Of a stretch of DNA of 24,423 bases, positions 14,007-14,471 are shown piece by piece; the first letter of the stretch is position 1; the number at the start of each line of letters is the position of its first letter. The translations under genes and the position numbers were made by a program. The notes under the pieces were generated by a model that was not told the DNA's origin, did not search any database, and saw only the letters and a list, made by a program, of their open reading frames with translations. Source of the stretch: a virus (Duplodnaviria; Heunggongvirae; Uroviricota; Caudoviricetes); IMG/VR virus record IMGVR_UViG_2531839474_000007, positions 1 through 24,423 of that record; one strand, 5' to 3'.

Positions 14007-14471
14007 TGTTTTGTTATGAAGGTGTTACTGGTAACGTTAAGGTAATTTAACAAAGAGTCAGTTCCGGACTTTATAGTGTGCTCAGTTCATGGCCAAAAAC
14101 GATTTCTGTGATAAATATTTTGAATATTATTTACAGGTAAATGGAGTGGGGCACATGGATAGAAATATTACAATAGAGAATGAAGTATATGCCCGTATTG
14201 TATGGGCAGAGAAGGCAAAAACACGGTAATTCCGTGTGTTGCCATGATACCTGATTGGCAGAATAGTTGTTTGGTTTTGAGTATATAGTCAGCGTTTTTT
14301 GTTCAGTAATTGCTCCCTCAAAAAATAATAAAATAAGGTGATTATTTTTGTTTATTATTTAGTTTTTTTTGTGTGTTGTTTTATTGTTTTTGCGTGGTTT
14401 GTTTTTTATTGTTATTTCATTAAGGGAAGGTAAATTCAGGATGGCAGTCTGTAGATAATCGGAGGTCACTT

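What the first reader, a model, noticed from the sequence alone, without database searches (positions are those of the whole stretch)
14007..14471. Strand-asymmetric T/G-rich tract upstream of the PerC-like gene
The 460 bp after Rz is very AT-rich. Within it, 14330..14415 on the plus strand is almost entirely T and G (TTTGTTTATTATTTAGTTTTTTTTGTGTGTTGTTTTATTGTTTTTGCGTGGTTTGTTTTTTATTG), so the minus strand is a C/A-rich tract. This is most likely curved, H-NS-silenced promoter DNA for the PerC-like gene. A minus-strand transcript here would be a C/A-rich RNA of the kind that can sponge G/U-rich sRNA seed regions, but no minus-strand promoter or terminator was identified.
Basis: inference. Interest (0 to 1): 0.4.

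Follow-up and report, generated by a model that had tools for sequence, protein, structure and literature searches.

The report
T-rich promoter of prophage pch gene
The odd T/G-only stretch is real, but it is simply the promoter and upstream region of the prophage virulence regulator gene pch, whose start of transcription has already been mapped just downstream, so it is ordinary.

Summary
Window 14345-14413 is about 90% T+G with a single C, and no shuffle of the window or of the AT-rich spacer reproduces it. The window is a lambdoid prophage of LEE-positive E. coli. The spacer plus the PerC-family gene (Pch, 14472-14786) is a roughly 960-bp cassette that sits where lambda-like phages carry bor.

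An identical copy in E. coli O157:H7 EDL933 has a published Cappable-seq start site, found in all 8 conditions with high read scores. It maps to window 14419. The tract therefore spans -74 to -6 of the pch promoter: -35 TTGTTT, 17-bp spacer, -10 TATTGT, and a T-rich UP-like zone.

"Promoter DNA" is supported. "Curved" is only weakly supported. "H-NS-silenced" is untested, and the constitutive start site argues against full silencing.

The minus-strand sponge idea is not supported. Antisense start sites were called in only 4/8 and 1/8 conditions. Pairing to GcvB is no better than composition predicts. Diverged pch promoters are AT-rich but not T/G-only. Both small ORFs in the spacer are non-coding.

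Verdict: already known, low interest.

The parts
14007..14471 (.). AT-rich spacer between Rz and pch (33% GC). It is the left part of a cassette (about 13985-14944) that replaces the bor cassette of lambda-like phages.
   Evidence: Homology to phage PhiR34_1 stops at 13984 and resumes at 14945.
14345..14413 (+). T/G-rich tract (about 90% T+G, one C). It spans -74 to -6 relative to the main pch start site.
   Evidence: with the start-site mapping.
14384..14389 (+). Putative -35 hexamer TTGTTT (3 of 6 matches).
   Evidence: Position relative to the mapped start site. Inferred, and too weak for the consensus scan to report.
14407..14412 (+). Putative -10 hexamer TATTGT (4 of 6 matches), with a 17-bp spacer from the -35 and a 6-nt A/T-rich discriminator TATTTC before the start site.
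   Evidence: Inferred from the start-site position.
14363..14370 (+). T8 run at -56 to -49, the position of a distal UP subsite. Its length varies from T6 to T9 among prophage copies.
   Evidence: 48 copies have T8, 21 have T7, 4 have T6, 1 has T9 and 5 did not match the counting pattern.
14319..14336 (+). A-rich block CAAAAAATAATAAAATAA, complementary to several T-rich segments of the tract. The A-to-T junction coincides with a predicted curvature peak.
14419..14471 (+). pch 5' UTR (53 nt) from the main start site (A at 14419). The Shine-Dalgarno GGAGG lies at 14461-14465. Minor start sites map to 14434 and 14444.
   Evidence: EDL933 start sites 1271063, 1271048 and 1271038 (PMC10469882 Tables S5 and S7), mapped through an identical alignment. 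The fold pairs the SD with early coding sequence.
14472..14786 (+). pch gene, a 104-aa PerC-family transcriptional regulator (PF06069).
14827..14850 (.). Hairpin AGCGAC-TTTAGTG-GTCGCT flanked by A5 and T5. It is the likely two-way terminator between pch (+) and the YlcI-like gene (-).
   Evidence: Sequence. Inferred; the terminator scan did not list it.
14216..14237 (-). Terminator-like hairpin on the minus strand (ACACGG-AATTA-CCGTGT followed by TTTTT). It would end any antisense transcript that crosses the tract.
   Evidence: The A25 variant changes the loop-closing pair to G-U on the minus strand, which is an A-C mismatch on the plus strand.
14466..14466 (-). Antisense start site (EDL933 1271016+), called in 1 of 8 conditions.
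   Evidence: PMC10469882 Table S6.
14638..14638 (-). Antisense start site inside the pch coding sequence (EDL933 1270844+), called in 4 of 8 conditions.
   Evidence: PMC10469882 Table S6.

Best explanation
The T/G-rich tract is the core promoter plus the T-rich, UP-like upstream region of pch, a PerC-family activator of the LEE virulence island. The gene is carried as a self-contained cassette (own promoter, gene, terminator) downstream of the lysis genes of a lambdoid prophage. Shown: RNA polymerase starts at A14419, and the tract covers -74 to -6. Inferred: the -35 (TTGTTT) and -10 (TATTGT) hexamers are weak, so activity probably depends on the T-tracts upstream of -35 (contacts with the polymerase alpha subunit and a narrow minor groove) and on activators reported for pch, such as LrhA. 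Also inferred: the A/T-rich discriminator fits the reported positive control by ppGpp/DksA. The near absence of C and A on this strand looks like a lineage-specific quirk of a fast-evolving T-rich promoter, not a selected property.
For: 1. The window carries R lysozyme, Rz/Rz1, the spacer, the PerC-family ORF, a YlcI-like gene and terminase. The segment 13950-14800 is 100% identical in hundreds of LEE-type E. coli genomes, where it is annotated 'lysis protein | PerC family transcriptional regulator'.
2. EDL933 locus RS06260 is identical to the window across the whole spacer.
3. Cappable-seq lists its gene start site 1271063(-) in all 8 conditions, with mean read scores of 164-2240 against a calling cutoff of 1.5. 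This maps to window 14419.
4. The hexamers and spacing fit that start site.
5. The cassette 13985-14944 replaces bor of lambda-like phages.
6. Diverged pch copies (strain A25, E. albertii, a 78%-identity family) keep an AT-rich region upstream and the block GTRGATAAYYGGAGGTMAYTKATG at the ribosome-binding site. The tract itself is the most variable part.
7. Reviews report direct activation of pchA and pchB by LrhA and control by butyrate/Lrp and ppGpp (PMC4456613, PMC6094958).
Against: The hexamers match consensus poorly (7 of 12), and the simple promoter scan did not report them. The start-site data come from another strain and from three near-identical paralogues, so reads cannot be assigned to one copy. 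No experiment available here shows that the T-tracts contribute to promoter strength. Among 77 close copies C stays at 2 or fewer in all but one, which leaves some room for a constraint on composition.
Confidence: 0.85

Rival explanations
1. A minus-strand transcript crossing the tract is a C/A-rich, unstructured regulatory RNA that sponges G/U-rich sRNA seeds such as GcvB R1, in the manner of the prophage anti-sRNA AgvB.
For: Antisense start sites exist at window 14638 (4 of 8 conditions) and 14466 (1 of 8). A minus-strand terminator-like hairpin with a T5 tail lies at 14237->14216. The 252-nt model RNA leaves the C/A tract unpaired and folds with z = -2.4. It could pair with GcvB R1 at -24.9 kcal/mol through a 9-nt perfect match.
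Against: The antisense start sites are condition-limited, whereas the sense start site scores in the hundreds to thousands. About 4% of random 81-mers from the window pair with GcvB R1 at least as well, and 18% of composition-matched shuffles share a word of 9 nt or more. The known anti-sRNAs lie at the PR' moron site, not here (PMC4104026). Rfam has no match. Diverged pch promoters lose T/G exclusivity: A25 has 8 C in this stretch, and E. albertii is 61% T+G.
Confidence: 0.04
2. The tract's main role is as a nucleation platform for H-NS, StpA or Hha that silences pch. This is compatible with it also being promoter DNA.
For: GC is 20-33% against 50% for the window. The DNA is horizontally acquired prophage DNA. 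Wedge-model curvature in the spacer is above average, with peaks near the 99th percentile at 14135, 14222 and 14322. H-NS is known to bind AT-rich foreign DNA in EHEC (PMC4764244).
Against: The pch start site is strong in all 8 laboratory conditions, so the promoter is not silent. The tract has no H-NS high-affinity motif within 2 mismatches. There is no helical phasing of the T-tracts (p about 0.4). No H-NS occupancy data for pch promoters were found in the papers searched.
Confidence: 0.3
3. The tract encodes a small hydrophobic peptide: the 31-aa GTG ORF at 14338-14433, MIIFVYYLVFFVCCFIVFAWFVFYCYFIKGR.
For: The ORF exists and would be strongly hydrophobic. Any T/G-rich sequence translates that way.
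Against: It starts upstream of the pch start site. No Shine-Dalgarno sequence was seen on reading the sequence upstream of the GTG. T-run length changes occur in many copies (T7 in 21, T6 in 4), and a 2-nt deletion in A25 shifts the frame.
Confidence: 0.01
4. The G-poor minus-strand RNA acts as a Rho loading (rut-like) zone that, with the hairpin at 14237-14221, stops antisense transcription from running back into the lysis genes.
For: The minus strand of the tract has only one G and about 19% C, and it is predicted to be unstructured. Weak antisense start sites lie upstream of it.
Against: The RNA would be about 72% A, not the C- and pyrimidine-rich sequence typical of rut sites. There is no experimental support, and diverged copies lack the property.
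Confidence: 0.05

Closest known systems
Promoter regions of pchA, pchB and pchC (PerC homologues) on lambdoid prophages of EHEC O157:H7 (Sakai Sp4, Sp11 and Sp14; EDL933 RS06260)
   Same: The sequence is identical to the EDL933 copy over the whole spacer and gene. The genomic position is the same, downstream of Rz. The mapped start site and the 53-nt 5' UTR also match.
   Different: Nothing of substance differs. The T/G-only composition itself did not appear in any held paper (one search found no paper that prints the sequence).
Lambdoid 'moron' cassettes such as bor of phage lambda
   Same: It occupies the same slot between Rz and the YlcI-like/cos/Nu1 region. It is a self-contained unit with its own promoter and terminator, and it is expressed from the prophage.
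   Different: bor lies on the opposite strand and encodes a lipoprotein. This cassette is on the late-gene strand and encodes a regulator.
UP elements and upstream A/T-tracts of sigma-70 promoters (for example rrnB P1)
   Same: There is a T-rich block at -40 to -75, including a T8 run at -56 to -49, upstream of weak core hexamers.
   Different: The A-rich proximal subsite of the UP consensus is absent. No test of alpha-CTD dependence was possible.
Prophage anti-sRNAs AgvB and AsxR (Tree et al. 2014, PMC4104026)
   Same: The minus strand contains C/A-rich words complementary to the GcvB R1 seed, and the DNA is prophage-borne.
   Different: The locus is different: the anti-sRNAs lie at the PR' moron site. 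There is no abundant short transcript here, the complementarity is not above background, and no conserved anti-sRNA 3' domain was shown.

Membership tests
Sigma-70 promoter of pch | An experimentally mapped primary 5' end immediately downstream | tested here: met
   Cappable-seq start site 1271063(-) in all 8 conditions, on an EDL933 copy identical to the window. It maps to window 14419.
Sigma-70 promoter of pch | -35 and -10 hexamers with 16-18 bp spacing at the right distance from the start site | tested here: inconclusive
   TTGTTT, 17 bp, TATTGT, then 6 nt to the start site. This is only 7 of 12 matches and falls below the scan's threshold.
Sigma-70 promoter of pch | A downstream gene with a ribosome-binding site, conserved with the gene | tested here: met
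   GGAGG lies 6 nt before the ATG. The block GTRGATAAYYGGAGGTMAYTKATG is conserved in E. albertii and the 78%-identity family.
UP element | An A/T-rich -40 to -60 region that raises transcription through the alpha-CTD | not testable with these tools
   The region is T-rich and has a T8 run at -56 to -49. Function needs reporter or in vitro assays.
H-NS-silenced xenogeneic DNA | AT-richness relative to the host genome | tested here: met
   33% GC in the spacer and about 20% in the tract, against 50% for the window.
H-NS-silenced xenogeneic DNA | H-NS occupancy and derepression in hns mutants | not testable with these tools
   No ChIP or hns-mutant data for pch promoters were found. Strong start-site signal in all conditions argues against full silencing.
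H-NS-silenced xenogeneic DNA | A high-affinity H-NS motif (TCGATAAATT) or phased A-tract curvature | tested here: not met
   No motif within 2 mismatches in 14300-14471. The 10-11 bp TT periodicity is not significant (41% of shuffles reach it). Wedge-model curvature is only moderately raised.
Anti-sRNA / sponge RNA (AgvB-like) | A discrete, abundant minus-strand transcript with its own start site and terminator | tested here: inconclusive
   Antisense start sites were called in 4 of 8 and 1 of 8 conditions, and a terminator-like hairpin exists. Abundance and a discrete band are unknown.
Anti-sRNA / sponge RNA (AgvB-like) | Seed complementarity beyond what composition gives | tested here: not met
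   Pairing to GcvB R1 is -24.9 kcal/mol, matched or beaten by 4% of window 81-mers. A shared word of 9 nt or more occurs in 18% of shuffles.
Anti-sRNA / sponge RNA (AgvB-like) | Location at the PR' moron site in a convergent sRNA pair | tested here: not met
   This locus lies downstream of Rz, not between Q/PR' and the lysis genes.
Small protein gene | Reading frame kept and purifying selection among copies | tested here: not met
   The 31-aa ORF is broken by T-run indels and by a 2-nt deletion. The 46-aa ORF shows 23 nonsynonymous against 2 synonymous changes, plus a stop, a lost start and indels.
Tandem repeat / iteron array | Repeat score above composition-matched controls | tested here: not met
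   TRF finds period 21-25 with score 59-60, but 36% of shuffled tracts score 59 or more.

The most novel reading that the evidence does not exclude
The composition may not be incidental. One reading is that the promoter haplotypes and the variable T-run (T6-T9) at -56 to -49 tune paralogue-specific pch expression, by shifting upstream activator sites such as LrhA relative to RNA polymerase. The other reading is that the weak antisense transcripts crossing the tract yield a G-free, C/A-rich RNA that titrates G/U-rich sRNAs such as GcvB in LEE-positive E. coli.
Probability: 0.07. Interest if true: 0.5.

Novelty: already known. Interest (0 to 1): 0.12.

Why it matters
Pch proteins switch on the LEE type III secretion island in EHEC and EPEC, so their promoters are points where virulence is controlled. 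This analysis adds only a modest annotation. It places the already-published start site on this sequence. It shows that the striking T/G tract is the promoter and UP-like zone. It records that paralogous copies differ in T-run length and promoter haplotype. It also removes the more exciting sponge-RNA reading.

Tried and rejected
- Rfam at a permissive E-value over 12500-16000 gave nothing in the spacer.
- The small ORFs at 14338-14433 and 14089-14229 are non-coding by frame and substitution patterns. They are absent from the Sakai small-gene supplements.
- The tandem-repeat origin of the tract is not above shuffles.
- There is no helical phasing of the T-tracts.
- There are no H-NS or IHF consensus sites in the tract.
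- GcvB pairing is not specific. The first attempt, with full-length GcvB, was uninformative because duplex energies scale with GC content.
- For the AgvB/AsxR analogy, the published locus is different.
- HnrS (PMC13502914) shows no link to this spacer, and no sequence was available.
- Key papers were not held: Melson & Kendall 2019, Honda 2009 and Abe 2008.
- No H-NS data for pch promoters were found.
- The Tree et al. 2014 supplements do not list the pch-flanking loci.
- No held paper prints the tract or the 5' UTR sequence.
- One viral-contig scan was wasted on a mistyped pattern.

Full report
**Observation**

The quoted string occurs once, at 14347-14411. Positions 14345-14411 hold 48 T, 13 G, 5 A and 1 C. 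The best 70-nt windows are 90% T+G, whereas no stretch elsewhere exceeds 71% A+C. The maximal T/G segment (14345-14413) scores 45. None of 200 dinucleotide shuffles of the window reached it, and none of 2000 shuffles of the AT-rich spacer alone did. The spacer is 33% GC and the window 50%.

**Context**

The ORF map gives these genes:
- R lysozyme, 12670-13203
- Rz, ending at 14006, with Rz1 embedded
- the spacer, 14007-14471
- a 104-aa PerC-family ORF, 14472-14786
- a YlcI-like ORF on the minus strand
- Nu1 and the large terminase subunit

Segment 13950-14800 is 100% identical in hundreds of E. coli genomes. It occurs in 674 of 5426 genomes with a median of 3 copies, mostly O157, O26, O145, O111, O121 and EPEC strains. 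RefSeq annotates it 'lysis protein | PerC family transcriptional regulator'. Homologues carry PF06069, so the gene is a pch gene.

Lambda-like phages align to the window up to 13984 and again from 14945. In between they carry bor. The spacer, pch and its terminator hairpin (14827-14850) therefore form a cassette of about 960 bp in the bor slot.

**Where transcription starts**

EDL933 locus RS06260 (coding sequence 1270696-1271010, minus strand) is identical to the window through the spacer and gene, apart from one SNP near the Rz stop codon. The published Cappable-seq tables for EDL933 (PMC10469882) give three sense start sites:

| EDL933 position | Window position | Conditions called | Note |
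|---|---|---|---|
| 1271063(-) | 14419 | 8 of 8 | Mean read scores 164-2240, calling cutoff 1.5 |
| 1271048(-) | 14434 | 1 of 8 | Minor |
| 1271038(-) | 14444 | 2 of 8 | Minor |

The main site gives a 53-nt 5' UTR. Relative to it, the tract spans -74 to -6. TTGTTT (14384-14389) and TATTGT (14407-14412) sit at -35 and -10 with a 17-bp spacer. They are followed by an A/T-rich discriminator, TATTTC. The hexamers are weak (7 of 12 matches), and the consensus scan did not report them.

The tract is therefore the core promoter plus a T-rich, UP-like zone. That it strengthens the promoter is inference. The predicted fold of the 5' UTR pairs the Shine-Dalgarno sequence with early coding sequence. This agrees with the anti-SD mechanism reported for pchA and DicF in a review (PMC7769764).

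**Comparative evidence**

In strain A25 (88.5% identity) the first 300 nt or so of the spacer are nearly identical to the window. From about 14290 onward the promoter and gene diverge. There are T-to-C changes, GGAGGGGAGAG replaces GGTTTGTTTTTT, and a 2-nt deletion is present.

E. albertii, Escherichia sp. MOD1 and a 78%-identity Pch family have AT-rich regions upstream, with T at 0.36-0.53 and T+G at 0.56-0.64. They share only the AAGGGAAG and ribosome-binding-site blocks with the window. T/G exclusivity is thus a feature of one lineage. An intact pch gene tolerates 8 C in this stretch.

Among 77 IMG/VR prophage copies the tract keeps T+G at 0.87-0.93 and C at 2 or fewer, with one exception. 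These copies are close relatives, so this is weak evidence for constraint. Two promoter haplotypes coexist within single genomes. The T8 run varies in length: 48 copies have T8, 21 have T7, 4 have T6 and 1 has T9.

**H-NS and curvature**

- The TT periodicity at 10-11 bp is not significant (41% of shuffles reach it).
- A wedge model gives moderately raised curvature. Its parameters were recalled from memory, so it is only a rough guide. The tract averages 25 against a window mean of 17, and peaks near the 99th percentile fall at 14135, 14222 and 14322.
- Neither an H-NS high-affinity motif nor an IHF consensus lies in the tract.
- No H-NS occupancy data for pch promoters were found.
- The start site is strong in all eight conditions, so 'silenced' is at best partial.

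**Minus strand**

The same dataset lists two antisense start sites. One is at 1270844(+), which is window 14638, in 4 of 8 conditions. The other is at 1271016(+), window 14466, in 1 of 8 conditions. A terminator-like hairpin with a T5 tail lies at 14237->14216.

A model RNA running from 14466 to 14215 leaves the C/A tract unpaired, with z = -2.4. It could pair with GcvB R1 at -24.9 kcal/mol through a 9-nt word. However, 4% of window 81-mers do as well, and 18% of composition-matched shuffles share a word of 9 nt or more. The known anti-sRNAs AgvB and AsxR lie at the PR' moron site (PMC4104026). Rfam finds nothing here. The sponge reading rests on composition alone.

**Other rejected readings**

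- The 31-aa hydrophobic ORF is broken by indels.
- The 46-aa ORF shows 23 nonsynonymous against 2 synonymous changes, plus a stop codon, a lost start and indels.
- The TRF repeat is matched by 36% of shuffles.

**Verdict**

This is the promoter region of a known prophage virulence regulator, and its start site is already in the literature. The T/G skew is a real but probably incidental feature. Novelty is 'already known', and interest is low.

Noticed in passing
window 13292-13384, minus strand (between R lysozyme and Rz): A candidate sRNA of about 93 nt. EDL933 Cappable-seq lists a start site at 1272098(+) in all 8 conditions, which maps to window 13384 on the minus strand. A TATACT -10 lies at 13397-13392, and a strong intrinsic terminator (CCCCG...CGGGG followed by T5) ends near 13292. 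The fold has three hairpins with z = -3.4. The region is unannotated in RefSeq. It is full length in about 680 E. coli genomes, and its 3' part occurs in about 1650. Rfam gives only a weak rimP-leader hit (E = 0.55). Whether it is one of the EcOnc or HnrS-type prophage sRNAs could not be checked.
   Followed up: partly
window 14363-14370 and 14402-14407: The homopolymer T-runs in the pch promoter vary in length among prophage copies. The T8 run ranges from T6 to T9. The T6 run lies inside the -35/-10 spacer and loses one base in a few copies. Two promoter haplotypes coexist within single genomes, which might underlie paralogue-specific pch regulation.
   Followed up: partly
window 13985-14944: The pch cassette occupies exactly the slot that holds bor, on the opposite strand, in lambda, 434 and related phages. 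Homology resumes at 14945, inside the YlcI-like gene, so that protein's C-terminal end differs from the lambda-like version.
   Followed up: partly
window 14089-14229: A 46-aa ORF that an older EDL933 annotation listed as a gene (RS29835) shows no sign of coding constraint. There are 23 nonsynonymous against 2 synonymous changes, a stop codon, a lost start and indels. Only a very weak start site lies upstream, at window 14044 (score 2.9, one condition).
   Followed up: yes
window 14007-14290 compared with 14290-14786: There is a mosaic boundary. In strain A25 the first 280 nt or so of the spacer are about 99% identical to the window, but the promoter and the pch gene are clearly diverged. This suggests recombination that swaps the promoter and gene as one module.
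   Followed up: no
window 12629, minus strand: The EDL933 start site 1272853(+), present in all 8 conditions, maps here just upstream of R lysozyme on the opposite strand. It is assigned to the small hypothetical gene RS06280 (window about 12238-12510, minus strand).
   Followed up: no
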